From Eledone cirrhosa (Eukaryota), in NCBI GenBank assembly GCA_964016885.1, contig OZ024741.1:17422001-17486000 (forward strand): a stretch of 64,000 bases of DNA, written 5' to 3'. Below, one piece after another: positions 3,589 to 64,000 of this stretch (position 1 is the stretch's first letter; each line of letters begins with the position of its first letter). The translations under genes were made by a program, and so were the position numbers. The notes under the pieces are model-generated. The model had not been told where the DNA came from. It worked only from the letters and a program-made list of their open reading frames with translations, and ran no database searches.

Positions 3589-3596
3589 TTGCTATC

Positions 3597-4588: not shown

Positions 4589-4593
<5 letters not shown>
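4464..4593. repeat. Near-perfect inverted repeat (57-bp arms, 16-nt spacer)
   Basis: 4464-4520 is the reverse complement of 4537-4593 with one mismatch. The spacer contains a 14-bp tandem copy (GACGGCTAATTCTG) of the end of the left arm. Confidence 0.93.
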
Positions 4594-5500: not shown

Positions 5501-5842
5501 TACGAGGGTGGGTTGAAAAGTTCATTAGCTGACTTTGAAAGATGATGCTAGGGCTGTGAAATCTTACATGCATTAATTTCAACTCCTCTTATTAATAACT
5601 GCATTGTTTCTTTCCGAGATTATGTCGAAAAATAAGCCTCATTCGGTCATTCCATGAGAGTATCTTGGTCAGCCTATGAAGGGGTGATGCTAGAGCTGTG
5701 AAATCTTACATGCATTAATTTCAACTCCTCTCATTAATAACTGCATTGTTTCTTTCCAAGACTATGTCGAAAAATAAGCCTCATTCGGTCATTCCATGAG
5801 GGTATCTTGGTCAGCCTATGAACTTTTCAGTCGACTTTCGTA
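5501..5842. mobile_element. Tc1/mariner-type MITE with an internal 138-bp tandem duplication
   Basis: The left end TACGAGGGTGGGTTGAAAAGTTCATTAGCTGAC matches the reverse complement of the right end, TACGAAAGTCGACTGAAAAGTTCATAGGCTGAC, at 26 of 33 positions. TA lies at both ends. Internal copies are at 5543-5680 and 5685-5822. No transposase ORF. Confidence 0.8.
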
Positions 5843-5887
5843 AATAAAGACAATAAACTACGGCTGTCAAAGCAGATTGGGAGAGGT

Positions 5888-6079
5888 AATAATTGTTTCT
5901 ACTTTTTTTGCACAAGGCCAGCAATTATCCCAGTGCATTACTGGTACTTTATTTTATCGACCCTGTAAGGATGAAAGGCAAAGTTAACCGGGATTTGAAC
6001 TCAGTCCGTAAAGGGCCGTAACTATGCTGCAAGGCATGGCGTCAGACCCTCTACTGATACTACCAATCTACCACCCTAA
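5888..6079 (-). mobile_element. tRNA-derived SINE (octopus-type, Meta-like central domain); its 5' head is monomer 1 of the satellite
   Basis: The minus strand reads: head with A-box-like TGGTAGTATCAG (6065-6054), B-box GAGTTCAAATCC (6002-5991), central TTTGCCTTTCATCCTTACAGGGTCGATAAAATAAAGTACCAG, then tail CCTTGTGCAAAAAAAGTAGAAACAATTATTA. The family name is from recalled similarity. Confidence 0.8.
5991..6002 (-). promoter_or_regulatory. RNA polymerase III B-box
   Basis: GAGTTCAAATCC on the minus strand matches the GTTCRANNC consensus and lies about 50 bp downstream of the A-box-like motif. Confidence 0.75.
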
Positions 6080-9000
6080 CATGGCGTCAGAGCCTCCACC
6101 GATACTACCAATCCACCACCCTAATATGGCGTCAGATCCTCTACAGATACTACCAATCCACCACCCTAATATGGCGTCAGACCCTCTACCGATACTACCA
6201 ATCCACCACCCTAATATGGCGTCAGACCCTCTACAGATACTACCAATCCACCACCCTAATATGGCGTCAGACGCTCTACCGATACTACCAATCCACCACC
6301 CTAACATGGCGTCAGACCCTCTACCGATTCTGCCAATCCACCACCCTAACATGGCGTCAGACCCTCTACCGATACTGCCAATCCACCACCCTAACATCGC
6401 GTCCTACCCTCCACCGATACTGCCAATCCACCACCCTAGCATGGCGTCAGACCCTCCAACGATACTACCAATCCACCACCCTAATATGGCGTCAGACCCT
6501 CTACCGATACTACCAATCCACCATCCTAGCATGGCATCAGACCCTCCACCGATACTACCAATCCACCACCCTAATATGGCGTCAGACCCTCTACCGATAC
6601 TACCAATCCACCACCCTAGCATGGCGTCAGACCCTCCACCGATACTACCAATCCACCACCCTAATATGGCGTCAGACCCTCTACAGATACTACCAATCCA
6701 CCACCCTAACATCGCGTCCTACCCTCCACCGATAGTGCCAATCCACCACCCTAAGATAGCGTCAGACCTCTACCGATACTGCCAATCCACCAACCTAACA
6801 TGGCATCAGACCCTCCACCGATACTACCAATCCACGAACCTAACATGGCGTCAGACCCTCCACCGATACTACCAATCCACCACCCTAACATGGCGTCCTA
6901 CCCTCCACCGATACTGCCAATCTACCACCCTAGCATGGCTTCAGACCCTCCACCGATACTACCAATCCACCACCCTAACATGGCGTCAGACCCTCTACCG
7001 ATACTACCAATCCACCACACTAGCATGGCGTCCGACTCTCTACCGATACTGCCAATCCACCACCCTAGCATGGTGTCCGACCCTCTACCGATACTACCAA
7101 TCCACCAACCTAGCATGGCGTCAGACCCTCCACCGATACTACCAATCCACCACCCTAACATGGCGTCAGACCCTCTACCGATACTACCAATGCACCACCC
7201 TAACAAGGCGTCCGACCCTCTACCGATACTACCAATCAACCACCCTAACATGGCGTCAGACCCTCCACCGATACTACCAATCCACCACCCTAGCATGGCG
7301 TCCAACCCTCTACCGATACTGCCAGTCAACCACCCTAACATGGCGTCCAACCCTCTACCGATACGGCCAATCAACCACCCTAACATGGCGTCAGACCCTC
7401 CACCGATACTACCAATCCGCCACCCTAGCATGGCGTCCAAATCTCTACCGATACTACCAATCCACCACCCTAACATGGCGTCCAACCCTCTACCGATACT
7501 ACCAATCCACCACCCTAGCATGGCGTCCAACCCTCTACCGATACTGCCAATCCACCACCCTAGCAAGGCGTCCAACCCTCTACCGATACTACCAATCCAC
7601 CACCCTAGCATGGCATCCGACCCTCCACCGATACTGCCAATCCACCACCCTAACATGGCGTCAGACCCTCTACCGATACTGTCAATCCACCACCCTAACA
7701 TGGCGTCAGACCCTCTACCGATACTACCAATCCACCACCCTAACATGGCGTCAGACCCTCTACCGATACTGCAAATCCACCACGCTAACATGGCGTCAGA
7801 CCCTCTACCGATACTGTCTATCCACCACCCTAACATGGCGTCAGACCCTCTACCGATACTGCAAATCCACCACCCTAACATGGCGTCAGACCCTCTCTCG
7901 ATACTGCCAATCCACCACCCTACCATGGCGTCAGACCCTCTACCGATACTGTCAATCCACCACCCTAACATGGCGTCAGACCCTCCACCGATACTGCCAA
8001 TCCACCACCCTAACATGGCATCAGACCCTCCACCGATACTGCCAATCCACCACCCTAACATGGCGTCAGACCCTCCACCGATACTGCCAATCCACAACCC
8101 TAACATGGCATCAGCCCCTCCACCGATACTGCCAATCCACCACCCTAACATGGCGTCCGACCCTCTACCGATACTACCTATCCACCACCCTAACATGGCG
8201 TCAGACCCTCCACCGATACTGCCAATCCACCACCCTAACATGGCATCAGACCCTCTACCGATACTGCCAATCCACCACCCTAACATGGCGTCAGACCCTC
8301 TACCGAAACTACCAATCAACCACCCTAACATGGCGTCCTACACTCCACCGATACTGTCAATCCACCACCCTAACATGGCATCAGACCCTCTACCGATACT
8401 GCCAATCCACCACCCTAACATAGCGTCTGAACCTCTACCACCCTAACATAGCGTCCTACCCTCCACCGATACTGCCAATCCACCACCCTAACATGGCGTC
8501 TGACCCTCTACCGATACTACCAATCCACCACCCTAACATGGCGTCCAACCCTCTACCGATACTACCAATCCACCACCCTAACATGGCGTCAGACCCTCTA
8601 CCGATACTGCCAATCCACCACCCTAGCATGGCGTCCAACCCTCTACCGATACTACCAATCCACCACCCTAACATGGCGTCCTACCCTCTACCGATACTAC
8701 CAATCCACCACCCTAGCATGGCGTCCAACCCTCTACCGATACTACCAATCCACCACCCTAACATGGCGTCCGACTCTCTACCGATACTACCAATCCACCA
8801 CCCTAGCATGGCGTCCGACCCTCTACCGATACTACCAATCCACCACACTAGCATGGCGTCCGACCCTCTACCGATACTACCAATCCACCACCCTAACATG
8901 GCGTCAGACCCTCTACCGATACTACCAATCCGCCACCCTAACATGGCGTCAGACCCTCTACCGATACTACCAATCCACTACCCTAATATGGCGTCTGACC

Positions 9001-12000
9001 CTCCACCGATACTGCCAATCCACCACCCTAACATGGCGTCAGACCCTCTACCGATACTGCCAATCCACCACCCTAACATGGCGTCAGACCCTCTACCGAT
9101 ACTGCCAATCCACCACCCTAACATGGCGTCTGACCCTCCACCGATACTGCCAATCCACCACCCTAACATGGCGTCTGACCCTCCACCGATACTGCCAATC
9201 AACCACCCTAACATGGCCTCTGACCCTCCACCGATACTACCAATCCACCACCCTAACATAGCGTCAGACCCTCTACCGATACTGCCAATCCACCACCCTA
9301 ACATGCCGTCCGACCCTCCACCGATACTGCCAATCCACCACCCTAACATGGCGTCCGACCCTCCACCGATACTACCAATCCACCACCCTAACATGGGGTC
9401 AGACCCTCTACCGATACTGCCAATCCACCACCCTAACATCGCGTCCTACCAACCACCGATACTGCCAATCCACCACCCTAGCATGGCGTCAGACCCGCCA
9501 CCGATACTACCAGTCCACCACCCTAACATGGCGTCAGACCCTCTACCGATACTGCCAATCCACCACCCTAACATCGCGTCCTACCCACCACCGATACTGC
9601 CAATCCACCACCCTAGCATGGCGTCAGACCCTGCACCGATACTACCAGTCCACCACCCTAACATGGCGTCCTACCCTCTACCGATACTGCCAATCCACCA
9701 CCCTAACATGGCGTCCTACCCTCCACCGATACTGCCAATCCACCACCCTAATTTGGCGTCAGACCCTCCACCGATACTACCAATCCACCACCCTAACATG
9801 GCGTCCGACCATCTACCGATACTGCCAATCCACCACCCTAACATGGCGTCCTACCCTCCACCGATACTGCCAATCCACCACCCTAACTTGGCGTCAGACC
9901 CTCCACCGATACTACCAATCCACCACCCTAACATGGCGTCCGACCATCTACCGATACTGCCAATCCACCACCCTAACATGGCGTCAGAACCTCTACCGAT
10001 ACTACCAATCCACCACCCTAACATGGCGTCCTACCCTCCACCGATACTGCCAATCCACCACCCTAACATGGCATCAGATCCTCTACCGATACTGCCAATC
10101 CACCACCCTAGCATGGCTTCAGACCCTCCACCGATACTACCAATCCACCACCCTAACATGGCGTCAGACCCTCTACCGATACTACCAATCCACCACCCTA
10201 ACATGGCGTCAGACCCTCTACCGATACTGCCAATCCACCACCCTAACATGGCGTCAGACCCTCTACCGATACTGCCAATCCACCACCCTAACATGGCGTC
10301 TGACCCTCTACCGATACTACCAATCAACCACCCTAACATGGCGTCTGATCCTCTACCGATACTACCAATCAACCACCCTAACATGGCGTCCAACCCTCTA
10401 CCGATACTACCAATCCACCACCCTAACATGGCGTCTGAACCTCTACCGATACTACCAATCAACCAGCCTAACATGGCGTCCAACCCTCTACATATACTAC
10501 CAATCCACCACCCTAACATGGCGTCTGACCCTCTACCGATACTACCAATCAACCACCCTAACATGGCGTCTGACCCTCTACCGATACTACCAATCAACCA
10601 CCCTAACATGGCGTCTGACCCTCTACCGATACTACCAATCAACCACCCTAACATGGCGTCCAACCCTCTACCGATACTACCAATCCACCACCCTAACATG
10701 GCGTCTGACCCTCTACCGATACTACCAATCAACCACCCTAACATGGCGTCTGACCCTCTACCGATACTACCAATCCACCACCCTAACATTGCGACAGACC
10801 CTCTACCGATACTGCCAATCCACCACCCTAGCATGGCGTCCAACCCTCTACCGATACTACCAATCCACCACCCTAACATGGCGTCCTACCCTCTACCGAT
10901 ACTACCAATCCACCACCCTAGCATGGCGTCCGACCCTCTACCGATACTACCAATCCACCACCCTAGCATGGCGTCCGACCCACTACCGATACTGCCAATC
11001 CACCACCCTACCATGGCGTCAGACCCTCTACCGATACTGTCAATCCACCACCCTAACATGGCGTCAGACCCTCTACCGATACTGCCAATCCACCACCCTA
11101 ACATGGCGTCAGACCCTCCACCGATACTGCCAATCCACCACCCTAACATGGCATCAGACCCTCCACCGATACTGCCAATCCACCACCCTAACATGGCATC
11201 AGACCCTCCACCGATACTGCCAATCCACCACCCTAACATGGCATCAGCCCCTCCACCGATACTGCCAATCCACCACCCTAACATGTCGTCCGACCCTCTA
11301 CCGATACTACCTATCCACCACCCTAACATGGCGTCAGACCCTCCACCGATACTGCCAATCCACCACCCTAACATGGCATCAGACCCTCTACCGATACTGC
11401 CAATCCACCACCCTAACATGGCGTCAGACCCTCTACCGAAACTACCAATCAACCACCCTAACATGGCGTCCTACACTCCACCGATACTGTCAATCCACCA
11501 CCCTAACATGGCATCAGACCCTCTACCGATACTGCCAATCCACCACCCTAACATAGCGTCTGACCCTCTACCACCCTAACATAGCGTCCTACCCTCCACC
11601 GATACTGCCAATCCACCACCCTAACATGGCGTCTGACCCTCTACCGATACTACCAATACACCACCCTAACATAGCGTCCAACCCTCTACCGAAACTACCA
11701 ATCCACCACCCTAACATGGCGTCAGACCCTCTACCGATACTGCCAATCCACCACCCTAGCATGGCATCCAACCCTCTACCGATACTACCAATCCACCACC
11801 CTAACATGGCGTCCTACCCTCTACCGATACTACCAATCCACCACCCTAGCATGGCGTCCAACCCTCTACCGATACTACCAATCCACCACCCTAACATGGC
11901 GTCCGACTCTCTACCGATACTACCAATCCACCACCCTAGCATGGCGTCCGACCCTCTACCGATACTACCAATCCACCACACTAGCATGGCGTCCGGCCCT

Positions 12001-28899: not shown

Positions 28900-31800
28900 T
28901 AACATGGCGTCCGACCCTCCACCGATACTGCCAATCTACCACCCTAACATGGCGCCAGACCCTCCACCGATACTGCCAATCCACCACCCTAACATGGCGT
29001 CCGACCCTCTACCAATACTGCCTATCCACTACCCTAGCATGACGTCCAACCCTCTACCGATACTACCAATCCACCACCCTAGCATGACGTCCAACCCTCT
29101 ACAGATACTACCAATCCACTACCCAATAATGACGTCCAACCCTCTACCGATACTACCAATCCACTACCCTAGCATGACGTCCAACCATCTACCGATACTA
29201 CCAATCCACTACCCTAGCATGACGTCCAACCCTCTACCGATACTACCAATCCACTACCCTAGCATGACGTCCAACCCTCTACCGATACTACCAATCCACT
29301 ACCCTAGCATGACGTCCAACCCTCTACTGATACTACCAATCCACCACCCTAGCATGACGTCCAACCCTCTACCGATACTACCAATCCACTACACTAGCAT
29401 GACGTCCAACCCTCTACCGATACTACCAATCCACCACCCTAGCATGACGTCCAACCCTCTACCGATACTACCAATCCACCACCCTAGCATGACGTCCAAC
29501 CCTCTACCAATACTGCCAATCCACTACCCTAGCATGACGTCCAACCCTCTACCGATACTACCAATCCACCACCCTAGCATGACGTCCAACCCTCTACCGA
29601 TACTACCAATCCACTACCCTAGCATGACGTCCAACCCTCTACCGATACTACCAATCCACCACCCTAGCATGACGTCCAACCCTCTACCGATACTACCAAT
29701 CTACCACCCTAGCATGACGTCCAACCCTCTACCGATACTACCAATCCACTACCCTAGCATGACGTCCAGCCCTCTACCGATACTGCCAATCAACCACCCT
29801 AACATGGCGTCCAACCCTCTACCGATACTACCAATCTACCACCCTAGCATGGCTTCAGACCCTCTACCGATACTGCCAATCAACCACCCTAACATGGCGT
29901 CCAACCCTCTACCGATACTGCCAATCAACCACCCTAGCATGGCTTCAGACCCTCTACCGATACTGCCAATCAACCACCCTAACATGGCGTCCAACCCTCT
30001 ACCGATACTGCCAATCTTCCACCCTAGCATGGCGTCCGACTCTCTACCGATACTGCCAATCCACCACCCTAACATGGCGTCCGACCCTCTACCGATACTA
30101 CCAATCCACCACCCTAACATGGCGTCAGACCCTCTACCGATACTGCCAATCTACCACCCTAGCATGGCGTCCAACCCTCTACCAATACTGCCAATCAACC
30201 ACCCTAGTATGGCGTCCAACCCTCTACCGATACTGCCAATCAACCACCCTAACATGGCGTTAGACCCTCCAACGATACTACCAATCCGCCACCCTAGCAT
30301 GGCGTCAAACCCTCTACCGACACTACCAATCCACCACCCTAACATGGCGTCCAATCCTCTACCGATACTACCAATCCACCACCCTAACATGGCGTCAGAC
30401 CCTCTACCGAACTGCCAATCCACCACCCTAACATGGCGTCAGACCCTCTACCGATACTGCCAATCCACCACCCTAAGATAGCGTCAGACGCTCTATCGAT
30501 ACTGCCAATCCACCACCCTAACATGGCGTCAGACCCTCTACCGATACTGCCAATCCACCACCCTAACATGGCGTCAGACCCTCCACCGATACTGACAATC
30601 CACCACCCTAACATGGCGTCCGACCCTCCACCGATACTGCCAATCTACCACCCTAACATGGCGTGAGACCCTCCACCGATACTGCCAATCCACCACCCTA
30701 ACATGGCGTCCGACCCTCGACCAATACTGCCAATCCACTATCTTAGCATGACGTCCAACCCTCTACCGATACTACCAATCAACAACCCTAGCATGACCTC
30801 CAACCCTCTACCGATACTACCAATCCACCACCCTAACATGGCGTCAGACCCTCTACCGATACTACCAATCTACCACCCTAGCATGGCTTCAGACCCTCCA
30901 CCGATACTACCAATCCACCACCCTAACATGGCGTCAGACCCTCCACCGATACTGCCAATCCACCACCCTAGCATGGCATCAGACCCTCTACCGATACTAC
31001 CAATCCACCAGCCTAACATGGCGTCCTACTCTCCACCGATACTGTCAATCCACCACCCTAACATGGCGTCCGACCCTCTACCGATACTACCAATCCACCA
31101 CCTTAGCATGGCGTCCAACCCTCTACCGATACTACCAATCCACCACCCTAGCATGGCGTCCGACCCTCTACCGATACTACCAATCCACCACACTAGCATG
31201 GCGTCCGACCCTCTACCGATACTACCAATCCACCACACTAGCATGGCGTCCTACCCTCTACCGATACTACCAATCCACCACACTAGCATGGCGTCCGACC
31301 CTCTACCGATACTACCAATCCACCACACTAGCATGGCGTCCGACCCTCTACCGATACTACCAATCCACCACCCTAACATGAAGTCAGACCCTCCACCGAT
31401 ACTACCAATCCACCACCCTAACATCGCGTCAGACCCTCTACCGATACTGCCAATCTTCCACCCTAGCATGGCGTCCGACTCTCTACCGATACTGCCAATC
31501 CACCACCCTAACATGGCGTCCGACCCTCTAACGATACTACCAATCCACCACCCTAACATGGCGTCCGACCCTCTACCGATACTACCAATCCACCACCCTA
31601 GTATGGCGTCCAACCCTCTACCGATACTACCAATCCACCACCCTAGCATGGCGTCCGACCCTCTACCGATACTACCAATCCACCACCCTAACATGGCGTC
31701 AGACCCTCCACCGATACTACCAATCCGCCAACCTAGCATGGCGTCCAACAATCTACCGATACTGCCAATCAACCACACTAACATGGCGTCAGACCCTCCA

Positions 31801-34800
31801 CCGATACTACCAATCCGCCACCCTAGAATGGCGTCCAACCCTCTACCGATACTGCCAATCAACCACCCTAACATGGCGTCCAACCCTCTACCGATACTGC
31901 CAATCAACCACCCTAACATGGCGTTAGACCCTCCAACGATACTACCAATCCGCCACCCTAGCATGGCGTCAAACCCTCTACCGACACTACCAATCCACCA
32001 CCCTAACATGGCGTCCAATCCTCTACCGATACTACCAATCCATCACCCTAGCAAGGCGTCCGACCCTCTACCGATACTACCAATCCAACACCCTAACATG
32101 GCGTCCAACCCTCTACCGATACTACCAATCCACCACCCTAGCATGGCTACCGACCCTCTACCGATACTACCAATCCACCACACTAGCATGTCATCAGACC
32201 CTCTACCAACACTGCCGATCCACCACCCTAACATGTCGTCCAACCCTCTCCCAATACTACCAATCCACCACCCTAGCATGGCGTTCGACCCTCTACCGAT
32301 ACTGCCAATCCACCACCCTAGCATGGCGTCCGACCCTCTACCGATACTGCCAATCCACCACCCTAGCATGGCGTCCGACCCTCCACCGATACTGCCAATC
32401 CACCACCCTAACATGGCGTCAGACCCTCTACCGATACTACCAATCCACCACCGTAACATGGCATCAGACCCTCCACCGATACTGCCAATCCACCACCCTA
32501 ACATGGCGTCAGACCCTCCACAGATACTGCCAATCCACCACCCTAACATGGCGTCAGACCCTCTACCGATACTACCAATCCACCACCCTAACATGGCGTC
32601 AGACCCTCTACCGCTACTGCCAATCCACCACCCTAGCATGGCGTCCGACCCTCTACCGATACTGCCAATCCACCACCCTAACATGGCGTCAGACCCTCTA
32701 CCGATACTACCAATCAACCACCCTAACATGGCGTCCTACCCTCCACCGATACTGCCAATCCACCACCCTAACATGGCGTCAGACGCTCTACCGATACTAC
32801 CAATCCACCACCCTAGCATGGCGTCCGACCCTCTACCGATACTACCTATCCACCACCCTAACATGGAATCAGACCCTCCACCGATACTGCCAATCCACCA
32901 CCCTAGCATGGCGTCCGACCCTCCACCGATACTGCCAATCCACCACCCTAACATGGCATCATACCCTCTACCGATACTGCCAATCCACCACCCTAGCATG
33001 GCGTCCGACCCTCTACCTATACTACCTATCCACCACCCTAACATGGCGTCAGACCCTCCACCGATACTGCCAATCCACCACCCTAGCATGGCGTCAGACC
33101 CTCTACCGATACTACCAATGAACCACCCTAACATGGCGTCAGACCCTTTACCGATACTGCCAATCCACCACCCTAACATAGCGTCAGACCCTCTACCGAT
33201 ACTGCCAATCAACCACCCTAACATGGCATCAGACCCTCTACCGATACTGCCAATCCACCACCCTAACATGGCATCAGACCCTCTACCGATACTGCCAATC
33301 CACCACCCTAACATGGCGTCAGACCCTCTACCGAAACTACCAATCAACCACCCTAACATGGCGTCCTACCCTCCACCGATACTGCCAATCCACCACCCTA
33401 ACATAGCGTCTGACCCTCTACCACCCTAACATAGCGTCCTACCCTCCACCGAAACTGCCAATCCACCACCCTAATATGGCATCAGACCCTCCACCGATAC
33501 TACCAATCCACCACCCTAACATGGCGTCTGACCCTATACCGATACTACCAATCCACCACACTAACATGGCGTCAGACCCTCTACCGATACTGCCAATCCA
33601 CCACCCTAACATGGCGTCAGACCCTCTACCGATACTGCCAATCCACCACCCTAACATGGCGTCCTACCCTCCACCGATACTGCCAATCCACCACCCTAAC
33701 ATGGTGTCAGACCCTCCACCGATACTGCCAATCCACCACCCTAACATGGCGTCCTACCCTCCACCGATACTGCCAATCCACCATCCTAACATGGCGTCAG
33801 ACCCTCTACCGATACTACCAATTCAACACCCTAAAATGGCGTCCTACCCTCCACCGATACTGCCAATCCACCACCCTAACATGGTGTCAGACCCTCCACC
33901 GATACTACCAATCCACCACCCTAACATGGCGTCCGACCCTCTACCGATACTACCAATCCACCACCCTAACATGGCGTCCTACCCTCTACCGATACTGCCA
34001 ATCCACCACCCTAGCATGGCTTCAGACCCTCCACCGATACTGCCAATCCACCACCCTAACATGGCATCAGACCCTCTACCGATACTGCCAATCCACCACC
34101 CTAGCATGGCTTCAGACCCTCCACCGATACTACCAATCCACCACCCTAACATGGCGTCAGACCCTCTACCGATACTACCAATCCACCACCCTAACATGGC
34201 GTCCTACCCTCCACCGATACTGTCAATCCACCACCCTAGCATGGCGTCCGACCCTCTACCGATACTACCAATCCACCACACTAGCATGGCGTCCGACCCT
34301 CTACCGATACTGCCAATCCACCACCCTAGAATGGTGTCCGACCCTCTACCGATACTACCAATCCACCACTCTAGCATGGCGTCAGACCCTCCACCGATAC
34401 TACCAATCCACCACCCTAGCATGGTGTCCGACCCTCTACCGATACTACCAATCCACCACCCTAACATGGCGTCAGACCCTCTACCGATACTACCAATCCA
34501 CCACCCTAACATGGCGTCCGACCCTCTACCGATACTACCAATCCACCACCCTAACATGGCGTCAGACCCTCCACCGATACTGCCAATCAACCACCCTAAC
34601 ATGGCGTCAGACCCCCCACCGATACTGTCAATCCACCACCCTAACATGGCGTCAGACCCTCTACCGATACTACCAATCCACCACCCTAACGTGGCATCAG
34701 ACCCTCCACCGATACTGCCAATCCACCACCCTAACATGGCGTCAGACCCTCTACCGATACTACCAATCCACCACCCTAACATGGCGTCAGACCCTCTACC

Positions 34801-37800
34801 GATACTGCCAATCCACCACCCTAGCATGGCGTCCGACCCTCTACGATACTACCAATCCACCACCCTAACATGGTGTCAGACTCTCTACCGATACTACCAA
34901 TCAACCACCCTAACATGGCGTCCTACCCTCCACCGATACTGCCAATCCACCACCCTAACATGGCGTCAGACGCTCTACCGATACTACCAATCCACCACCC
35001 TAGCATGGCGTCCGACCCTCTACCGATACTACCAATCCACCACCCTAACATGGCATCAGACCCTCTACCGATACTGCCAATCCACCACCCTAACATGGCG
35101 TCAGACCCTCTACCGATACTGCCAATCCACCACCCTAACATGGCGTCAGACCCTCTACCGATACTGCCAATCCACCACCCTAGCATGGCGTCCGACCCTC
35201 TACCGATACTACCAATCCACCACCCTAACATGGCGTCCGACCCTCTACCGATACTACTAATCCACCACCCTAACATGGCGTCCTACCCTCCACCGATACT
35301 GCCAATCCCCCACCCTAACATGGCATCAGACCCTCTACCGATACTGCCAATCCACCACCCTAGCACGGCTTCAGACCCTCCACCGATACTACCAATCCAC
35401 CACCCTAACATGGCGTCCGACCCTCCACCGATACTGCCAATCTACCACCCTAACATGGCGTCAGACCCTCCACCGATACTGCCAATCCACCACCCTAACA
35501 TGGCGTCCGACCCTCTACCAATACTGCCTATCCACTACCCTAGCATGACGTCCAACCCTCTACCGATACTACCAATCCACCACCCTAGCATGACGTCCAA
35601 CCCTCTACAGATACTACCAATCCACTACCCAATAATGACGTCCAACCCTCTACCGATACTACCAATCCACTACCCTAGCATGACGTCCAACCCTCTACCG
35701 ATACTACCAATCCACTACCCTAGCATGACGTCCAACCCTCTACCGATACTACCAATCCACTACCCTAGCATGACGTCCAACCCTCTACCGATACTACCAA
35801 TCCACTACCCTAGCATGACGTCCAACCCTCTACTGATACTACCAATCCACCACCCTAGCATGACGTCCAACCCTCTACCGATACTACCAATCCACTACAC
35901 TAGCATGACGTCCAACCCTCTACCGATACTACCAATCCACCACCCTAGCATGACGTCCAACCCTCTACCGATACTACCAATCCACCACCCTAGCATGACG
36001 TCCAACCCTCTACCAATACTGCCAATCCACTACCCTAGCATGACGTCCAACCCTCTACCGATACTACCAATCCACCACCCTAGCATGACGTCCAACCCTC
36101 TACCGATACTACCAATCCACTACCCTAGCATGACGTCCAACCCTCTACCGATACTACCAATCCACCACCCTAGCATGACGTCCAACCCTCTACCGATACT
36201 ACCAATCTACCACCCTAGCATGACGTCCAACCCTCTACCGATACTACCAATCCACTACCCTAGCATGACGTCCAGCCCTCTACCGATACTGCCAATCAAC
36301 CACCCTAACATGGCGTCCAACCCTCTACCGATACTACCAATCTACCACCCTAGCATGGCTTCAGACCCTCTACCGATACTGCCAATCAACCACCCTAACA
36401 TGGCGTCCAACCCTCTACCGATACTGCCAATCTTCCACCCTAGCATGGCGTCCGACTCTCAACCGATACTGCCAATCCACCACCCTAACATGGCGTCCGA
36501 CCCTCTACCGATACTACCAATCCACCACCCTAACATGGCGTCAGACCCTCTACCGATACTGCCAATCTACCACCCTAGCATGGCGTCCAACCCTCTACCA
36601 ATACTGCCAATCAACCACCCTAGTATGGCGTCCAACCCTCTACCGATACTGCCAATCAACCACCCTAACATGGCGTTAGACCCTCCAACGATACTACCAA
36701 TCCGCCACCCTAGCATGGCGTCAAACCCTCTACCGACACTACCAATCCACCACCCTAACATGGCGTCCAATCCTCTACCGATACTACCAATCCACCACCC
36801 TAACATGGCGTCAGACCCTCTACCGAACTGCCAATCCACCACCCTAACATGGCGTCAGACCCTCTACCGATACTGCCAATCCACCACCCTAAGATAGCGT
36901 CAGACGCTCTATCGATACTGCCAATCCACCACCCTAACATGGCGTCAGACCCTCTACCGATACTGCCAATCCACCACCCTAACATGGCGTCAGACCCTCC
37001 ACCGATACTGACAATCCACCACCCTAACATGGCGTCCGACCCTCCACCGATACTGCCAATCTACCACCCTAACATGGCGTGAGACCCTCCACCGATACTG
37101 CCAATCCACCACCCTAACATGGCGTCCGAACCTCGACCAATACTGCCAATCCACTATCTTAGCATGACGTCCAACCCTCTACCGATACTACCAATCAACA
37201 ACCCTAGCATGACCTCCAACCCTCTACCGATACTACCAATCCACCACCCTAACATGGCGTCAGACCCTCTACCGATACTACCAATCTACCACCCTAGCAT
37301 GGCTTCAGACCCTCCACCGATACTACCAATCCACCACCCTAACATGGCGTCAGACCCTCCACCGATACTGCCAATCCACCACCCTAGCATGGCATCAGAC
37401 CCTCTACCGATACTACCAATCCACCAGCCTAACATGGCGTCCTACTCTCCACCGATACTGTCAATCCACCACCCTAACATGGCGTCCGACCCTCTACCGA
37501 TACTACCAATCCACCACCTTAGCATGGCGTCCAACCCTCTACCGATACTACCAATCCACCACCCTAGCATGGCGTCCGACCCTCTACCGATACTACCAAT
37601 CCACCACACTAGCATGGCGTCCGACCCTCTACCGATACTACCAATCCACCACACTAGCATGGCGTCCTACCCTCTACCGATACTACCAATCCACCACACT
37701 AGCATGGCGTCCGACCCTCTACCGATACTACCAATCCACCACACTAGCATGGCGTCCGACCCTCTACCGATACTACCAATCCACCACCCTAACATGAAGT

Positions 37801-40800
37801 CAGACCCTCCACCGATACTACCAATCCACCACCCTAACATGGCGTCAGACCCTCTACCGATACTGCCAATCTTCCACCCTAGCATGGCGTCCGACTCTCT
37901 ACCGATACTGCCAATCCACCACCCTAACATGGCGTCCGACCCTCTAACGATACTACCAATCCACCACCCTAACATGGCGTCCGACCCTCTACCGATACTA
38001 CCAATCCACCACCCTAGTATGGCGTCCAACCCTCTACCGATACTACCAATCCACCACCCTAGCATGGCGTCCGACCCTCTACCGATACTACCAATCCACC
38101 ACCCTAACATGGCGTCAGACCCTCCACCGATACTACCAATCCGCCAACCTAGCATGGCGTCCAACAATCTACCGATACTGCCAATCAACCACACTAACAT
38201 GGCGTCAGACCCTCCACCGATACTACCAATCCGCCACCCTAGAATGGCGTCCAACCCTCTACCGATACTGCCAATCAACCACCCTAACATGGCGTCCAAC
38301 CCTCTACCGATACTGCCAATCAACCACCCTAACATGGCGTTAGACCCTCCAACGATACTACCAATCCGCCACCCTAGCATGGCGTCAAACCCTCTACCGA
38401 CACTACCAATCCACCACCCTAACATGGCGTCCAATCCTCTACCGATACTACCAATCCATCACCCTAGCAAGGCGTCCGACCCTCTACCGATACTACCAAT
38501 CCAACACCCTAACATTGCGTCCAACCCTCTACCGATACTACCAATCCACCACCCTAGCATGGCTACCGACCCTCTACCGATACTACCAATCCACCACACT
38601 AGCATGTCATCAGACCCTCTACCAACACTGCCGATCCACCACCCTAACATGTCGTCCAACCCTCTCCCAATACTACCAATCCACCACCCTAGCATGGCGT
38701 TCGACCCTCTACCGATACTGCCAATCCACCACCCTAGCATGGCGTCCGACCCTCTACCGATACTGCCAATCCACCACCCTAGCATGGCGTCCGACCCTCC
38801 ACCGATACTGCCAATCCACCACACTAACATGGCGTCAGACCCTCTACCGATACTACCAATCCACCACCGTAACATGGCATCAGACCCTCCACCGATACTG
38901 CCAATCCACCACGCTAACATGGCGTCAGACCCTCCACAGATACTGCCAATCCACCACCCTAACATGGCGTCAGACCCTCTACCGATACTACCGATCCACC
39001 ACCCTAACATGGCGTCAGACCCTCTACCGCTACTGCCAATCCACCACCCTAGCATGGCGTCCGACCCTCTACCGATACTGCCAATCCACCACCCTAACAT
39101 GGCGTCAGACCCTCTACCGATACTACCAATCAACCACCCTAACATGGCGTCCTACCCTCCACCGATACTGCCAATCCACCACCCTAACATGGCGTCAGAC
39201 GCTCTACCGATACTACCAATCCACCACCCTAGCATGGCGTCCGACCCTCTACCGATACTACCTATCCACCACCCTAACATGGAATCAGACCCTCCACCGA
39301 TACTGCCAATCCACCACCCTAGCATGGCGTCCGACCCTCCACCGATACTGCCAATCCACCACCCTAACATGGCATCATACCCTCTACCGATACTGCCAAT
39401 CCACCACCCTAGCATGGCGTCCGACCCTCTACCTATACTACCTATCCACCACCCTAACATGGCGTCAGACCCTCCACCGATACTGCCAATCCACCACCCT
39501 AGCATGGCGTCAGACCCTCTACCGATACTACCAATCAACCACCCTAACATGGCGTCAGACCCTTTACCGATACTGCCAATCCACCACCCTAACATAGCGT
39601 CAGACCCTCTACCGATACTGCCAATCAACCACCCTAACATGGCATCAGACCCTCTACCGATACTGCCAATCCACCACCCTAACATGGCATCAGACCCTCT
39701 ACCGATACTGCCAATCCACCACCCTAACATGGCGTCAGACCCTCTACCGAAACTACCAATCAACCACCCTAACATGGCGTCCTACCCTCCACCGATACTG
39801 CCAATCCACCACCCTAACATAGCGTCTGACCCTCTACCACCCTAACATAGCGTCCTACCCTCCACCGAAACTGCCAATCCACCACCCTAATATGGCATCA
39901 GACCCTCCACCGATACTACCAATCCACCACCCTAACATGGCGTCTGACCCTATACCGATACTACCAATCCACCACACTAACATGGCGTCAGACCCTCTAC
40001 CGATACTGCCAATCCACCACCCTAACATGGCGTCAGACCCTCTACCGATACTGCCAATCCACCACCCTAACATGGCGTCCTACCCTCCACCGATACTGCC
40101 AATCCACCACCCTAACATGGTGTCAGACCCTCCACCGATACTGCCAATCCACCACCCTAACATGGCGTCCTACCCTCCACCGATACTGCCAATCCACCAT
40201 CCTAACATGGCGTCAGACCCTCTACCGATACTACCAATTCAACACCCTAAAATGGCGTCCTACCCTCCACCGATACTGCCAATCCACCACCCTAACATGG
40301 TGTCAGACCCTCCACCGATACTACCAATCCACCACCCTAACATGGCGTCCGACCCTCTACCGATACTACCAATCCACCACCCTAACATGGCGTCCTACCC
40401 TCTACCGATACTGCCAATCCACCACCCTAGCATGGCTTCAGACCCTCCACCGATACTGCCAATCCACCACCCTAACATGGCATCAGACCCTCTACCGATA
40501 CTGCCAATCCACCACCCTAGCATGGCTTCAGACCCTCCACCGATACTACCAATCCACCACCCTAACATGGCGTCAGACCCTCTACCGATACTACCAATCC
40601 ACCACCCTAACATGGCGTCCTACCCTCCACCGATACTGTCAATCCACCACCCTAGCATGGCGTCCGACCCTCTACCGATACTACCAATCCACCACACTAG
40701 CATGGCGTCCGACCCTCTACCGATACTGCCAATCCACCACCCTAGAATGGTGTCCGACCCTCTACCGATACTACCAATCCACCACCCTAGCATGGCGTCA

Positions 40801-56900: not shown

Positions 56901-59900
56901 GAGTCAGACTCTCCACCAATACTGCCAATCCACCACCCTAACATGGCATCAGACCCTCTACCGATACTGCCAATCCACCGCCCTAGCATGGCATCAGACC
57001 CTCTACCGATACTACCAATCCACCACCCTAACATGGCGTCAGACCCTCTACCGATACTGCCAATCCACCACCCTAACATGGCGTCAGACCCTCTACCGAT
57101 ACTACCAATCCACCACCCTAACATGGCGTCAGACCCTCCACCGATACTGCCAATCCACCACCCTAACATGGCGTCAGACCCTCTACCGATACTACCAATC
57201 CACCACCCTAACATGGCGTCAGACCGTCCACCGATACTGCCAATCCACCACCCTAGCATGGCGTCAGACCCTCTACCGATACTACCAATCCACCACCCTA
57301 ACATGGCGTCAGACCCTCTACCGATACTGCCAATCCACCACCCTAACATGGCGTCAGACCCTCTACCGATACTGCCAATCCACCACCCTAGCATGGCGTC
57401 AGACCCTCTACCGATACTGCCAATCCACCACCCTAACATGGCGTCAGACCCTCTACCGATACTACCAATCCACCATCCTAGCATGGCATCAGACCCTCCA
57501 CCGATACTGCCAATCCACCACCCTAACATCGCGTCCGACCCTCTACCGATACTACCAATCCACCACCCTAACATGGCGTCAGACCCTCTACCGATACTGC
57601 CAATCCACCAACCTAACATGGCATCAGACCCTCCACCGATACTGCCAATCCACCACCCTAGCATGGCGTCAGACCCTCCACCGATACTACCAATCCAGCA
57701 CCCTAACATGGCGTCAGACCCTCCACCGATACTACCAATCCACCACCCTAACATGGCATCAGACCCTTTACCGATACAACCAATCCAACACCCTAACATG
57801 GCGTCAGACCCTCCACCGATACTGCCACTCCACCACCCTAGCATGGCGTCAGACCCTCTGCCGATACTGCCAATCTACCACCCTAACGTGGCATCAGACC
57901 CTCCACCGATACTACCAAGCCACCACCCTAGCATGGCGTCAGACCCTCTACCGATACTGACAATCCACCACCCTAACATGTTGTCCGACCCTCTACCGAT
58001 ACTGCCAATCCACCACCCTAACATGGTGTCCGACCCTCTACCGATACTACAAATCCACCACGCTAACATGGCATCCGACCCTCTACCGATACTACCAATC
58101 CACCACCCTAATATGGCGTCAGACCCTCCACCGATACTGCCAATCCACCACCCTAACATGGCGTCAGACCCTCTACCGATACTACCAATCCACCACCCTA
58201 GCATGGCATCAGACCCTCCACCGATACTGCCAATCCACCACCCTAACATGGCGTCCAACCCTCTACCTACACTGCCAATCCACCACCCTAACATGGCGTC
58301 AGACCCTCTACCGATACTGCCAATCTACCACCCTAACATGGCATCAGACCCTCCTCCGATACAACCAATCCACCACCCTAGCATGGCGTCCAACCCTCTA
58401 CCGATTCTGCCAATCCACCACCCTAACATGGCGTCCTACACTCCACCGATACTACCAATCCACCACCCTAGCATGGCGTCAGACCCTCTACCGATACTGC
58501 CAATCTACCACCCTAACATGGCATCAGACCCTCCACCGATACTACCAATCCACCACCCTAGCATGGCGTCAGACCCTCTACCGATACTGCCAATCCACCA
58601 CCCTAACATGGTGTCCGACCCTCTACCGATACTACCAATCTACCACCCTAACATGGCATCAGACCCTCCACCGATACTACCAATCCACCACCCTAGCATG
58701 GTGTCCGACCTTCTACCGATACTGCGAATCCACCACCCTAACATGGCGTCAGACCCTCTACCGATACTGCCAATCAACCACCCTAACATGGTGTCCGACC
58801 CTCTACCGATACTACCAATCCACCACCCTAGCATTGCGTCTGACCCTCCACCGATACTGCCAATCCACCACCCTAGCATGGCGTCCGACCCTCTACCGAT
58901 ACTGTCAATCCACCACCCTAACATGGTGTCCGAACCTCTACCGATACTGCCAATCCACCACCGTAACATGGTGTCCGACCCTCTACCGATACTACAAATC
59001 CACCACGCTAACATGGCGTCCGACCCTCTACCGATACTACCAATCTACCACCCTAATATGGCGTCAGACCCTCTACCGATACTACCAATCCACCACCCTA
59101 ACATGGCGTCAGACCCTCTACCGATACTACAAATCCACCACGCTAACATGGCGTCCGACCCTCTACCGATACTACCAATCCACCACCCTAATATGGCGTC
59201 AGACCCTCCACCGATACTGCCAATCCACCACCCTAACATGGCGTCAGACCCTCTACCGATACTACCAATCCACCACCCTAGCATGGCATCAGACCCTCCA
59301 CCGATACTGCCAATCCACCACCCTAACATGGCGTCCAACCCTCTACCTACACTGCCAATCCACCACCCTAACATGGCGTCAGACCCTCTACCGATACTAC
59401 CAATCCACCACCCTAGTATGGCGTCCGACCTTCTACCGATACTGCCAATCCACCACCCTAACATGGCGTCAAACCCTCTACCGATACTGCCAATCCACCA
59501 CCCTAACATGGCATCAGACCCTCTACCGATACTGCCAATCCACCAACCTCACATGGCATCAGACCCTCCACCGATACTGCCAATCCACCACCCTAACATG
59601 GCACCAGACCCTCTACCGATACTGCCAATCCACCACCCTAACATGGCATCAGACCCTCCACCGATACTGCCAATCCACCACCCTAACATGGCATCAGACC
59701 CTCTACCGATACTGTCAATCCACCAACCTAACATGGTATCAGACCCTCCACCGATACTGCCAATCCACCACCCTAACATGGCGTCCGACCCTCTACCGAT
59801 ACTACCAATCCGACGCCCTAACATGGCGTCAGACCCTCTACCGATACTGCCAATCCACCACCCTAACATGGCATCAGACCCTCTACCGATACTGCCAATC

Positions 59901-62900
59901 CACCAACCTAACATGGTATCAGACCCTCTACCGATACTGACAATCCACCACCCTAACATGGCGTCAGACCCTCCACCGATACTACCAATCCACCATCCTA
60001 ACATGGCGTCAGACCCTCCACCGATACTGCCAATCCACCACCCTAACATGGCATCAGACCCTTTACCGATACAACCAATCCAACACCCTAACATGGCGTC
60101 AGACCCTCCACCGATACTGCCAATCCACCACCCTAGCATGGCGTCCAACCCTTTACCGATTCTGCCAATCCACCACCCTAACATGGCGTCCTACCCTCCA
60201 CCGATACAACCAATCCACCACCATAGCATGGCGTCCAACCCTCTACCGATTCTGCCAATCCACCACCCTAACATGGCATCAGACCCTCTACCGATACTAC
60301 CAATCCACCACCCTAACATGGCATCAGACCCTCTACCGATACTACCAATCCACCACCCTAACATGGCGTCCTACCCTCCACCGATACAACCAATCCACCA
60401 CCCTAGCATGGCGCCCAACCCTCTACCGATTCTGCCAATCCACCACCCTAACATGGCATCAGACCCTCTACCGATACTGCCAATCAACCACCCTAAGATG
60501 GCGTCCGACCCTCTACCGATACTACCAATCCACCACCCTAACATGGCGTCCAACCCTCTACCTACACTGCCAATCCAGCACCCTAACATGGCGCCAGACC
60601 CTCTACCGATACTACCAATCCACCACCCTAACATGGCGTCCAACCCTCTACCTACACTGCCAATCCACCACGCTAACATGGCGTCAGACCCTCTACCGAT
60701 ACTGCCAATCTACCACCCTAACATGGCATCAGACCCTCCACCGATACTACCAATCCACCACCCTAGCATGGCGTCCGACCTTCTACCGATACTGCCAATC
60801 CACCACCCTAACATGGCGTCCAACCCTCTACCGATACTGCCAATCCACCACCCTAGCATGGCGTCCAACCCTCTACCGATACTGCCAATCCACCACCCTA
60901 GCATGGCGTCCAACCCTCTACCGATACTGCCAATCCACCACCCTAGCATGGCGTCCAACCCTCTACCGATACTGCCAATCCACCACCCTAACATGGCGTC
61001 AGACCCTCCACCGATACTACCATTCCACCACCCTAACATGGCGTCAGACCCTCCACTGATACTACCAATCCACCACCCTAGCATGGCGTCCAACCCTCCA
61101 CCGATACGACCAATCCACCACCCTAACATGGCGTCAGACCCTCCACCGATACTGCCAATCCACCACCCTAGCATGGCGTCCAACCCTCTACCGATACTGC
61201 CAATCCACCACCCTAACATGGCATCAGACCCTTTACCGATACAACCAATCCAACACCCTAACATGGCGTCAGACCCTCCACCGATACTGCCAATCCACCA
61301 CCCTAGCATGGCGTCCAACCCTTTACCGATTCTGCCAATCCACCACCCTAACATGGCGTCCTACCCTCCACCGATACAACCAATCCACCACCCTAGCATG
61401 GCGTCCAACCCTCTACCGATTCTGCCAATCCACCACCATAACATGGCGTCCTACACTCCTCCGATACAACCAATCCACCACCCTAGCATGGCGTCCAACC
61501 CTCTACCGATTCTGCCAATCCACCACCCTAACATGGCGTCCTACACTCCACCGATACTACCAATCCACCACCCTAGCATGGCGTCAGACCCTCTACCGAT
61601 ACTGCCAATCTACCACCCTAACATGGCATCAGACCCTCCACCGATACTACCAATCCACCACCCTAGCATGGCGTCAGACCCTCTACCGATACTGCCAATC
61701 CACCACCCTAACATGGTGTCCGACCCTCTACCGATACTACCAATCCACCACCCTAACATGGTGTCCGACCCTCTACCGATACTGCCAATCTACCACCCTA
61801 ACATGGCATCAGACCCTCCACCGATACTACCAATCCACCACCCTAGCATGGCGTCCGACCCTCTACCGATACTACCAATCCACCACCCTAACATGGTGTC
61901 CGACCCTCCACCGATACTGCCAATCCACCACCCTAGCATGATGTCCGACCTTCTACCGATACTGCGAATCCACCACCCTAACATGGCGTCAGACCCTCTA
62001 CCGATACTGCCAATCAACCACCCTAACATGGTGTCCGACCCTCTACCGATACTACCAATCCACCACCCTAGCATGGCGTCCAACCCTCTACCGATACTAC
62101 CAATCCACCACCATAACATGGCGTCCGACCCTCTACCGATACTGCCAATCCACCACCCTAACATGGCGTCCGACCCTCTACCGATACTGCCAATCCACCA
62201 CCCTAGCATTGCGTCTGACCCTCCACCGATACTGCCAATCCACCACCCTAGCATGGCGTCCGACCCTCTACCGATACTGTCAATCCACCACCCTAGCATT
62301 GCGTCAGACCCTCCACCGATACTGCCAATCCACCACCCTAGCATGGCATCTGACCCTCTACTGATACTGCCAATCCACCACCCTAACATGGCGTCAGACC
62401 CTCTACCGATACTGCCAATCCACCACCCTAGCATGGCGTCCGACCCTCTACCGATACTGCCAATCTACCACCCTAACATGGCGTCAGACCCTCTACCGAT
62501 ACTGCCAATCCACCACCCTAGCATGGCGTCAGACCCTCCACCGATACTACCAATCCACCACCCTAGCCTGGCGTCCGACCCTCTACCGATACTGCCAATC
62601 CACCAGCCTAACATGGCGTCAGACCCTCCACCGATACTACCAATCCACCACCCTAGCCTGGCGTCCGACCCTCTACCGATACTGCCAATCCACCACCCTA
62701 GCATGGCGTCAGACCCTCCACCGATACTACCAATCCACCACACTAGCATGGCTTTTGACCCTCCACCGATACTGCCAATCCACCACCCTAGCATGGCATC
62801 AGACCCTCTACCGATACTGCCAATCCACCACCCTAGCCTGGCGTCCGACCCTCTACCGATACTGCCAATCCACCACCCTAGCCTGGCGTCCGACCCTCTA

Positions 62901-64000
62901 CCGATACTGCCAATCCACCACCCTAACATGGCGTCAGACCCTCCACCGATACTACCAATCCACCACCCTAGCATGGCGTTTGACCCTCCACCGATACTGC
63001 CAATCCACCACCCTAGCATGGCATCAGACCCTCTACCGATACTGCCAATCCACCACCCTAACATGGCATCAAACATCTACCGATACTACCAATCCACCAC
63101 CCTAACATGGCGTCAGACCCTCCACCGATAGTGCTAATCCACCACCCTAACATGGCGTCAGACCCTCTACCGATACTGCCCATCCACCACCCTAACATGG
63201 CATCAGACCCTCTACCGATACTGCCAATCCACCACCCTAACATGGCGTCAGACCCTCTACCGATACTACCAATCCACCACCCTAACATGGCGTCAGACCC
63301 TCCACCGATACTGCCAATCGACCACCCTAGCATGGCGTCAGACCCTCTACCGATACTGCCAATCCACCACCCTAACATGGCGTCAGACCCTCCACCGATA
63401 CTACCAATCCACCACCCTAACATGGCGTCAGACCCTCCACCGATACTACCAATCCACCACCCTAACATGGCGTCAGACCCTCCACCGATACTGCAAATCC
63501 ACCAACCTAACATGGCATCAGACCCTCCACCGATACTGCCAATCTACCACCCTAACATGGCGTTAGACTCTCTACCGATACTGCCAATCCACCACGCTAA
63601 CATGACGTCAGACCCTCTACCGATACTGCCAATCCACCACCCTAACATGGCATCAGACCCTCTACCGATACTGCCAATCCACCACCCGAACATGGCGTCA
63701 GACCCTCTACCGATACTGCCAATCCACCACCCTAACATGGCGTCAGACCCTCTCCCGATACTGCCAATCCACCACCCTAACATGGCATCAGACCCTCTAC
63801 CGATACTGACAATCCACCACCCGAACATGGCGTCAGACCCTCTACCGATACTGCCAATCCACCACCCTAACATGGCGTCAGACCCTCTACCGATACTGCC
63901 AATCCACCACCCTAACATAGGATCAGACCCTCCACCGATACTGCCAATCCACCACTCTAACATGGCGTCAGACCCTCTACCGATACTGCCAATCCACCAT

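What the first reader, a model, noticed from the sequence alone, without database searches (positions are those of the whole stretch)
5888..64000. A 58-kb satellite apparently grown in place from the Pol III A-box head of a tRNA-derived SINE, still fused to the parent SINE body
Seen in sequence: on the minus strand the monomer reads TTAGGGTGGTGGATTGGCAGTATCGGTAGAGGGTC(T/G)GACGCCATG. At 6035 it runs without a gap into CCTTGCAGCATAGTTACGGCCCTTTACGGACT-GAGTTCAAATCC (B-box), then the SINE core and tail. The SINE has no other head, so monomer 1 supplies it, with an A-to-B-box gap of about 50 bp. Established knowledge: TGGCAG(A/T)ATCGGTAGAG(C/G)GTCGGAC has the form of a tRNA D-arm/A-box (TRGCNNARYNNG). 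Minor variants restore the more tRNA-like state: a full A-box TGGCAGAATCGG at 6324-6335, 58401-58412, 60156, 60246, 60426, 61326, 61416 and 61506, and AGAGCGTC in the GACGCTCT monomers. Inference: the first 45 bp of one SINE copy was amplified about 1,290-fold, giving a very large array of A-box-like motifs upstream of a single B-box. The birth site of a TE-derived satellite is rarely visible this clearly. Most monomers carry an A-to-T change in the A-box, so promoter function may have been lost.
Basis: partly seen in the sequence, partly recalled or inferred. Interest (0 to 1): 0.85.

Follow-up and report, generated by a model that had tools for sequence, protein, structure and literature searches.

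The report
SINE-head satellite, one of hundreds
This 86-kb satellite is the first 45 bases of a small jumping element (a SINE) repeated about 1,900 times in front of the rest of the element, and it is one of more than 200 such loci in the genome, all found by the same joint, which likely passes between copies near chromosome ends before each locus likely grows in place.

Summary
The 45-bp unit is SINE nt 1-45, including the A-box, and it runs straight into the SINE body. The array is 86 kb, about 1,905 units.

It is not a unique birth site. At least 221 loci have (head)n+body with the same junction. n runs from 2 to about 2,200, and a ~100-kb array lies on C1. About half keep a target-site duplication (48/93, versus 56/131 single copies).

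The multi-head state occurs in all three body subfamilies and does not cluster on the body tree. First units are often 5'-truncated while second units are complete, as here. So the junction was probably imported, not made from the locus's own head. Multi-head loci crowd chromosome ends, single copies do not, and neighbouring arrays share variants. This favours DNA-level transfer of the junction, then growth in place by unequal exchange.

The 'A-to-T promoter loss' is wrong: T is the family state (146/156).

It is a new variant of the SINE-derived satellites described in reptiles. No transcription or function was shown.

The parts
6033..64000 (-). Tandem array of SINE nt 1-45 (A-box head); 1,280 units in the window; continues to window-equivalent 92,068 (86 kb, ~1,905 units)
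6033..6077 (-). Last (body-proximal) head unit, serving as the SINE's own head
6054..6065 (-). A-box-like motif of the last unit (degenerate in this copy)
   Evidence: weak alignment to the D-arm region of genomic tRNA-like genes
5991..6002 (-). B-box-like motif, 51 nt after the proximal A-box and 96 nt after the next one upstream
   Evidence: sequence
5888..6032 (-). SINE body, core and ATT-type tail (GCAG body subfamily)
5884..5893 (-). 3' copy of a probable degenerate target-site duplication; 8/10 match to the 10 nt just 5' of the array's far end (outside the window)
   Evidence: 8/10, reached by 1.4% of 2,430 background positions
30160..40743 (-). Internal 6,416-bp segmental duplication of the array (perfect runs of 28 and 26 units); coordinates approximate
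58900..64000 (-). Start of a region with ~11.9-kb tandem segmental repeats that extends beyond the window (perfect runs up to 71 units)

Best explanation
The array is the 5' 45 nt of a tRNA-like SINE repeated about 1,900 times in front of the SINE body, one of more than 200 such loci; it likely began as an ordinary SINE insertion that picked up the family's one fixed head-to-head junction, likely by DNA-level copying from another multi-head copy, and then likely expanded in place. Step 1, retrotransposition of the SINE (inferred; TSDs and tails are seen directly). Step 2, gain of a second head carrying the junction CCATG(C/T)T|AGGG (the fixed junction is shown; its transfer by ectopic gene conversion or replication template switching between SINE copies in recombination-rich chromosome ends is inferred). 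Step 3, growth by slippage and then unequal exchange of kb-sized blocks (the blocks are shown; the mechanism is inferred), with CpG loss and some exchange between neighbouring arrays. The array is most likely functionless, minisatellite-like DNA: only the one or two A-boxes nearest the single B-box could plausibly be used by Pol III. The descriptive part (SINE-head satellite, one of hundreds, grown in place) I hold at about 0.9. The seeding route is the uncertain step.
For: Fixed junction: 114 + 107 non-overlapping near-exact hits of junction + last unit + body start. 12,075 exact junctions genome-wide against 1 with a 1-3 nt longer joint. In laid contigs of run X3 the go-back-45 joints lead the head-internal joints (26 + 24 contigs, against 8 and 7 for 41- and 38-nt forms). 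TSD of 10 nt or more in 48/93 multi-head and 56/131 single copies. Not a clade: multi-head copies in all three body classes (49/30/24, 8 other); 59 label changes on the body tree against a shuffled mean of 60.5, at least 9 forced by well-supported branches. Not self-made from the local head: second unit complete in 107/109, first unit complete in 60/102; this array's first unit starts at nt 8. Junction-linked variants: T44 in about half of junctions but 6/156 single heads; T5 in the second unit of 7/11 exact-type dimers against 3/19 singles (p=0.015). Position: 33/42 multi-head loci on C1-C4 lie in the outer quarter of the chromosome against 8/28 ordinary copies (p=5e-5); n=2-4 loci also lie nearer ends (p=0.004); 4/34 against 12/23 lie on the four giant chromosomes (p=0.002). 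Arrays within 3 Mb of each other share non-CpG variants more than distant arrays (0.196 vs 0.028, size-stratified p=0.015), e.g. 44G above 15% only in four arrays at the C1 tip that have different bodies and flanks. Growth in place: perfect 71-unit runs at ~11.9-kb offsets and a 6,416-bp duplication; body divergence rises with n (rho 0.27, p=0.008).
Against: Dimers look young: other CpGs are 93-99% intact in n=2-5 loci and dimer bodies are no older than single ones (0.038 vs 0.043-0.046), which fits creation at insertion time. 38A is in 56% of all junctions but 2/25 dimers, so large old arrays are not the usual donors. The two rare non-CpG variants in dimer last units are shared with the first unit, which needs a short conversion tract or later homogenisation. 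The neighbour-sharing signal falls to p=0.058 without the C1 tip, whose arrays I picked by position. First units are complete more often than single heads (60/102 vs 54/154). The body tree is poorly resolved (148 columns, 13 of 193 branches starred, bootstrap unsettled). All multi-head loci were found with junction-containing queries, so other breakpoints are under-sampled (1 other internal duplication among 162 single copies).
Confidence: 0.5

Rival explanations
1. Two-headed source genes are transcribed by Pol III from the upstream A-box and retrotranspose as dimers. Dimers survive and expand mainly near chromosome ends.
For: TSDs enclose the whole unit. n=2 is the commonest class (25/111) and has the youngest bodies. 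First units start at or just inside nt 1 and are truncated like retrocopies. The second A-box lies 96 nt from the B-box, close to the 31-93 bp yeast range (PMC11724288, passage).
Against: No clustering on the body tree, so dimer sources would be needed in every subfamily. Even n=2-4 loci are end-biased while young ordinary copies are uniform. No RNA evidence was found.
Confidence: 0.25
2. The partner LINE reverse transcriptase reaches the RNA 5' end and jumps back to nt 45 (same RNA or a 45-nt fragment), making heads in tandem at insertion time. Template jumping by R2 reverse transcriptase is recalled; I saw only search listings.
For: It would recur in any subfamily. Nt 45 is the last paired base before the apical loop of a predicted rod formed by nt 3-93 (20/34 copies; mean z -1.6 in 14 copies). 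Rare variants are shared between units of low-n loci.
Against: It does not explain T5 in second units while first units keep C5 (dimer first units 14 C, 1 T, 10 unreadable). The 46-48-nt joints expected from the UUU loop are almost absent (1). It does not predict the end bias. The fold z-scores are modest.
Confidence: 0.12
3. One reading: this one SINE copy duplicated its own first 45 bp by a local accident, and this is the birth site of the satellite.
For: Continuous fusion to the body; array-enriched variant 26G; internal block duplications.
Against: The same junction is at 221 or more loci with unrelated flanks and bodies. This array's first unit lacks nt 1-7. A larger array exists on C1.
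Confidence: 0.04
4. The junction is written repeatedly by telomerase or by capture of telomeric repeat at a break after nt 43-45; the new end re-anneals to the AGGG at the head start.
For: The two junction-linked variants (T44, T5) together give GTTAGGGT, an 8-nt match to the TTAGGG telomere repeat (recalled); 751 copies in the window array. Strong bias to chromosome ends and small chromosomes.
Against: A break after nt 46 should be a good substrate, but 46-nt units are nearly absent. About half of junctions have C44. Loci whose first unit lacks AGGG still have full 45-nt second units. Five of the eight bases are SINE-encoded anyway.
Confidence: 0.07

Closest known systems
SINE-derived satellites (sSat1-3) of squamate reptiles (Vassetzky, Kosushkin, Ryskov 2023, PMC10702118; read parts 1-4 of 5, no supplements)
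   Same: Tandem unit is part of a tRNA-related SINE; one terminal unit extends to a SINE end; many loci from a few to over 1,000 units (320, ~950, >1,200 reported); uniform unit across loci in snakes; locus-specific subvariants; subtelomeric preference while the SINE itself is evenly spread.
   Different: Unit is 45 nt (theirs 67-290) and is exactly the 5' end, A-box without B-box. Both SINE ends and a TSD are kept in about half of loci (two termini were a minor variant there; TSDs were not discussed in what I read). Arrays reach 86-100 kb. Non-vertebrate host. Here the multi-head state was tested against body subfamily and found unlinked.
Tandem SINE arrays in the bivalve Scapharca broughtonii (PMC11481361; passages and section 15)
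   Same: Mollusc; TSD1-(SINE part)n-TSD1 architecture.
   Different: Units are near-whole truncated SINEs, 4-15 units, with internal units lacking part of the head; no kb-scale satellite.
TE-derived tandem repeats in human, including partial Alu duplicated at the 5' side of a full Alu (PMC3389668; passages)
   Same: 5' partial duplication next to a full element; arises more in young families; later expands in place; initiation mechanism stated as mostly unexplained.
   Different: 136 cases, mostly two units, with no fixed breakpoint reported; no satellite-scale arrays.
Octopus tRNA-derived SINEs OR1/OR2 (CORE-SINEs; Ohshima and Okada 1994, seen only as citations in PMC4824008 and PMC4758252)
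   Same: The body core resembles octopus SINEs as I recall them (recalled, not tested).

Membership tests
tRNA-derived SINE (parent element) | Short, dispersed, high-copy, non-coding | tested here: met
   ~190 nt; 12,068 exact head-body joints genome-wide
tRNA-derived SINE (parent element) | Target-site duplications and simple-repeat tail | tested here: met
   TSD of 10 nt or more in 56/131 single copies; ATT-type tail
tRNA-derived SINE (parent element) | A- and B-box in a tRNA-related head | tested here: inconclusive
   Both motifs present by eye. Best alignment to 7 genomic tRNA-like genes only p=0.007 against shuffles, uncorrected. ARAGORN 0 genes in 2 copies; no tRNA hit in Rfam at E<=10. 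Parent tRNA not identified.
tRNA-derived SINE (parent element) | Pol III transcription | not testable with these tools
   Only contigs were available; one RNA-labelled run gave one contig
tRNA-derived SINE (parent element) | 3' end shared with a partner LINE | not tested
   No search was made
SINE-derived satellite (sSat, PMC10702118) | Tandem unit is a portion of a SINE, shorter than the SINE | tested here: met
   Unit = nt 1-45; median best identity of 1,869 units to one of 44 dispersed single heads 93%
SINE-derived satellite (sSat, PMC10702118) | Terminal unit extends to a SINE terminus | tested here: met
   Body and tail follow the last unit here and in 11 of 12 array 3' ends read in C1 regions fetched by place; the exception is an interrupted array whose body lies 2.35 kb further on
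SINE-derived satellite (sSat, PMC10702118) | [quoted passage not shown] | tested here: met
   111 multi-head loci parsed, 68 with n>=6; 1,120 non-first units of exactly 45 nt
SINE-derived satellite (sSat, PMC10702118) | Subtelomeric preference | tested here: met
   33/42 vs 8/28 in the outer quarter of C1-C4; this array lies at 4% of C2
CORE-SINE superfamily (octopus OR1/OR2) | ~60-bp CORE domain | not tested
   No reference sequence was obtained from a tool

The most novel reading that the evidence does not exclude
The head-to-head junction is a self-spreading, telomere-mimicking seed. A GTTAGGGT joint, first written by telomerase or telomere capture at the apex of the SINE's 5' hairpin, jumps between SINE copies near chromosome ends and turns them into satellites of up to 100 kb that carry one telomere hexamer every 45 bp and could recruit telomere proteins.
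Probability: 0.08. Interest if true: 0.8.

Novelty: new variant of a known kind. Interest (0 to 1): 0.45.

Why it matters
The genome holds a full series of one satellite's life, from 2 to about 2,200 units, at hundreds of independent insertions with TSD-marked boundaries. How the first duplication of a TE-derived tandem repeat arises is stated as open in PMC3389668 and was not resolved in the parts of PMC10702118 that I read. Here it is directly testable: compare single-head, multi-head and empty alleles at the same TSD across individuals. If the junction moves between copies by DNA-level transfer, satellite seeding is contagious rather than a series of local accidents. The window's array is a large but ordinary member of the set; no function was shown.

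Tried and rejected
Pol III termination at the T-run plus end-to-end template jumping: predicts 46-48-nt units; 1 hit genome-wide.

One multi-head SINE subfamily: rejected by the body tree and class counts.

Large old arrays as usual junction donors: 38A in 56% of junctions but 2/25 dimers.

T5 as a requirement for large arrays: not shown; the ~100-kb C1 array carries 9-13% C5, and T5 against n is only weakly related (rho 0.19, p=0.076).

Variant 9A as evidence of neighbour exchange: dropped because it was in my query; the test was rerun without column 9 and without a duplicate locus.

Head variants diagnostic of body subfamily, to tell the models apart: none found.

Transcription: one RNA-labelled run held a small share and gave one contig; all runs were contigs, so nothing on strand, start or level.

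Parent tRNA: the Rfam tRNA search scored only 63 candidates and returned Thr, Ala, Val, Asp and Ile types, several looking like one repeat family; no assignment.

Megablast at 98.5% ungapped found only one block of 1.2 kb or more; unit-level comparison found the large duplications.

My parser stopped at an indel in the main array and counted it as n=53; its size comes.

Earlier scan notes: none for this genome or sequence.
Full report
Observation. The window is G000:C2:17,422,001-17,486,000 in a 3.0-Gb assembly. From 6035 to the end it is a 45-bp tandem array of 1,280 units, 1,232 exactly 45 nt. With the neighbouring stretches the array ends at C2:17,514,068: 86,033 bp, about 1,905 units, no N. 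On the minus strand it runs directly into a ~145-nt SINE body and tail. The A-box-like motif of the last unit (6065-6054) lies 51 nt before the B-box-like motif (6002-5991).

The monomer is the SINE head. A search with the body alone gave 42 scored matches of 1,121 candidates. In the 29 other loci fetched, the sequence 5' of the body is the same head, whole or truncated, in all but a few strongly truncated ones. The exact 40-nt head-to-body joint occurs 12,068 times, the reversed control 0. Among single heads with GGG at positions 2-4, 43 of 50 have A at position 1, so the unit is SINE nt 1-45 and holds no flank. The tRNA origin is supported only by the two box motifs and a weak alignment (best of 7 genomic tRNA-like genes p=0.007, uncorrected; ARAGORN and Rfam negative).

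It is one of hundreds. A four-unit query showed other arrays. The four I read first (12, 27, 104 and 172 units) all end in a SINE body. Two near-exact patterns of junction + last unit + body start, which cannot hit the same place, gave 114 and 107 hits: at least 221 loci. A looser pattern gave 521 hits, some of them inside arrays. Exact junctions number 9,589 + 2,486; this array holds 886 of them. I parsed 275 copies, 164 single and 111 multi-head, n from 2 (25 loci) to 172 (these are the loci I fetched, part of those listed). By 1-kb probes, an array on C1 spans about 10.317 to at least 10.416 Mb, some 100 kb, and another covers at least 27 kb. So this array is neither unique nor the largest.

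Anatomy of the set. A TSD of 10 nt or more encloses the whole (head)n+body in 48 of 93 complete multi-head loci, as in 56 of 131 singles. Here the match is 8/10, reached by 1.4% of background positions. The junction is fixed: a pattern for joints 1-3 nt longer found 1 site. In contigs of run X3 the go-back-45 forms (26 and 24 contigs) lead the 41- and 38-nt forms (8 and 7); only the best 15 of 236 joints were shown, and X3 may be the assembly's own sample. Two contigs of each 45 form are also in X7, labelled as another organism, at too low a share to count as support. Among 162 single copies, 1 had another internal duplication upstream and 40 sat behind another SINE's tail. My multi-head sample was found with junction-containing queries, so other breakpoints are under-sampled.

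Where the junction comes from. It is not made from each locus's own head and flank. The second unit is complete in 107 of 109 loci, the first in 60 of 102, and ten loci have a truncated first unit, a full second unit and a TSD (two or three of the ten may be alignment artefacts). This array's first unit starts at nt 8. It is not one subfamily either. Multi-head copies fall in all three body classes, and on a tree of 198 bodies the label needs 59 changes against a shuffled mean of 60.5, with at least 9 forced by supported branches; the tree is poorly resolved. Two variants hug the junction. T44 is in about half of junctions (my queries were biased both ways) but in 6 of 156 single heads. T5 is in the second unit of 7 of 11 exact-type dimers against 3 of 19 singles (hand count; p=0.015), while dimer first units keep C5 (14 C, 1 T, 10 unreadable). 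This points to an inherited junction block that moves between bodies (inference).

Position favours a DNA-level route. On C1-C4, 33 of 42 listed multi-head loci lie in the outer quarter, against 8 of 28 ordinary copies (p=5e-5). The ordinary copies are 16 body hits and 12 exact head+body hits, not all checked upstream. Loci with n=2-4 are also nearer ends (12 of 13 in the outer half, p=0.004; two loci dropped, one mis-sized and one fetched by place). Complete zero-mismatch lists put 4 of 34 multi-head but 12 of 23 ordinary copies on these four chromosomes, which are 54% of the genome. Arrays within 3 Mb share non-CpG variants more than distant ones (63 arrays; 0.196 vs 0.028; p=0.015; p=0.058 without the C1 tip). 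An insertion-time origin would not predict an end bias for young dimers unless retention differs by region.

Against this route: dimers look young. Large arrays cannot be the usual donors (38A in 6,746 of 12,075 junctions but 2 of 25 dimers). Rare variants in the last unit of n<=5 loci are shared with the first unit in 6 of 6 cases. These facts keep two rivals alive: two-headed RNAs from an upstream A-box (96 nt from the B-box, against 31-93 bp in yeast tRNA genes, PMC11724288 passage), and RT jumping back to nt 45, which is the last paired base before the apical loop of a predicted rod in 20 of 34 copies.

Growth in place. The array has perfect runs of 71 units at 11.8-11.9-kb offsets and of 28 and 26 units at 6,416 bp, against a 1% chance that two units are identical. 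This is the pattern of unequal exchange (established knowledge of satellite turnover). Variant 26G (34%) reached 15% in only one other of 64 arrays. Body divergence rises with n (rho 0.27, p=0.008). CpGs are lost as arrays grow, including by transversions; PMC9476566 (passages) reports satellites as the more methylated repeat class in octopus. Function: none shown. With one B-box, all but the nearest one or two A-boxes are out of known TFIIIC reach (inference), so the array is unlikely to act as a promoter battery. The RNA search gave nothing usable.

Comparison with what is known. Vassetzky et al. 2023 (PMC10702118; parts 1-4 of 5 read) describe SINE-derived satellites in squamates: part-SINE units, a SINE end on one side, up to more than 1,200 units, subtelomeric. 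This finding meets those features. It differs in a shorter unit that is exactly the 5' end, both termini and a TSD often kept, arrays of 86-100 kb, a non-vertebrate host, and a fixed junction shown to be unlinked to body subfamily. Bivalve tandem SINEs (PMC11481361, passages and section 15) and 5' partial Alu duplications (PMC3389668, passages) are smaller parallels. Searches listed no report of this satellite; I saw listings only, read no supplements, and could not consult Dfam, Repbase or Ohshima and Okada 1994, where it could be catalogued. The likeness to octopus SINEs is recalled, not tested.

Verdict. Observation confirmed; interpretation partly supported. New variant of a known kind, interest 0.45. 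The value lies in the genome-wide series and the testable seeding step, not in this one locus.

Noticed in passing
G000:C1:10,316,706 to at least 10,416,000 (L290-L293, L308-L310, L326, L327): A ~100-kb array of the same unit, larger than the window's, interrupted near the body by about 2.35 kb of other sequence; own variants 33G and 38A.
   Followed up: partly
G000:C1:1.3-9.6 Mb (L297-L307): Dense cluster of independent multi-head SINEs at the chromosome tip; four share 16T and the otherwise rare 44G.
   Followed up: partly
SINE copies genome-wide, e.g. L006, L021, L027: 40 of 162 single copies sit directly behind another SINE's tail (head-to-tail tandems), a possible source of the first junction.
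   Followed up: partly
L115:1493-1590 and other copies: SINE nt 3-93 are predicted to fold as one long rod whose apical loop starts right after nt 45, the unit boundary; modest z-scores.
   Followed up: partly
window 6035-64000: The junction forms TTAGGG in about 60% of units (1,116 in the whole array) and GTTAGGGT 751 times in the window.
   Followed up: partly
window ~780-1620 and ~1740-3590, + strand: By eye, decayed fragments of non-LTR retrotransposon reverse-transcriptase genes, the second RTE-like with zinc-finger-like coding at its end; not translated or searched.
   Followed up: no
window 4467-4591: Short palindromic, MITE-like element with a 14-bp internal tandem repeat (4507-4537); similar sequence follows the SINE in L005.
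   Followed up: no
window 5543-5822: 142-bp tandem duplication (96% match) just beyond the SINE tail.
   Followed up: no
L246, L248-L251, L253-L256: tRNA-like genes typed as Ala-GGC, Val-GAC, Ala-AGC and Asp-GTC share one body, likely a tRNA-derived repeat family with drifting anticodons; tRNA-Thr clusters in L245 and L247.
   Followed up: no
L173 (G000:C10:5,303,887 and 5,308,888): Two near-identical dimer copies 5 kb apart with the same flank: a local segmental duplication (counted as two rows in my tables).
   Followed up: no
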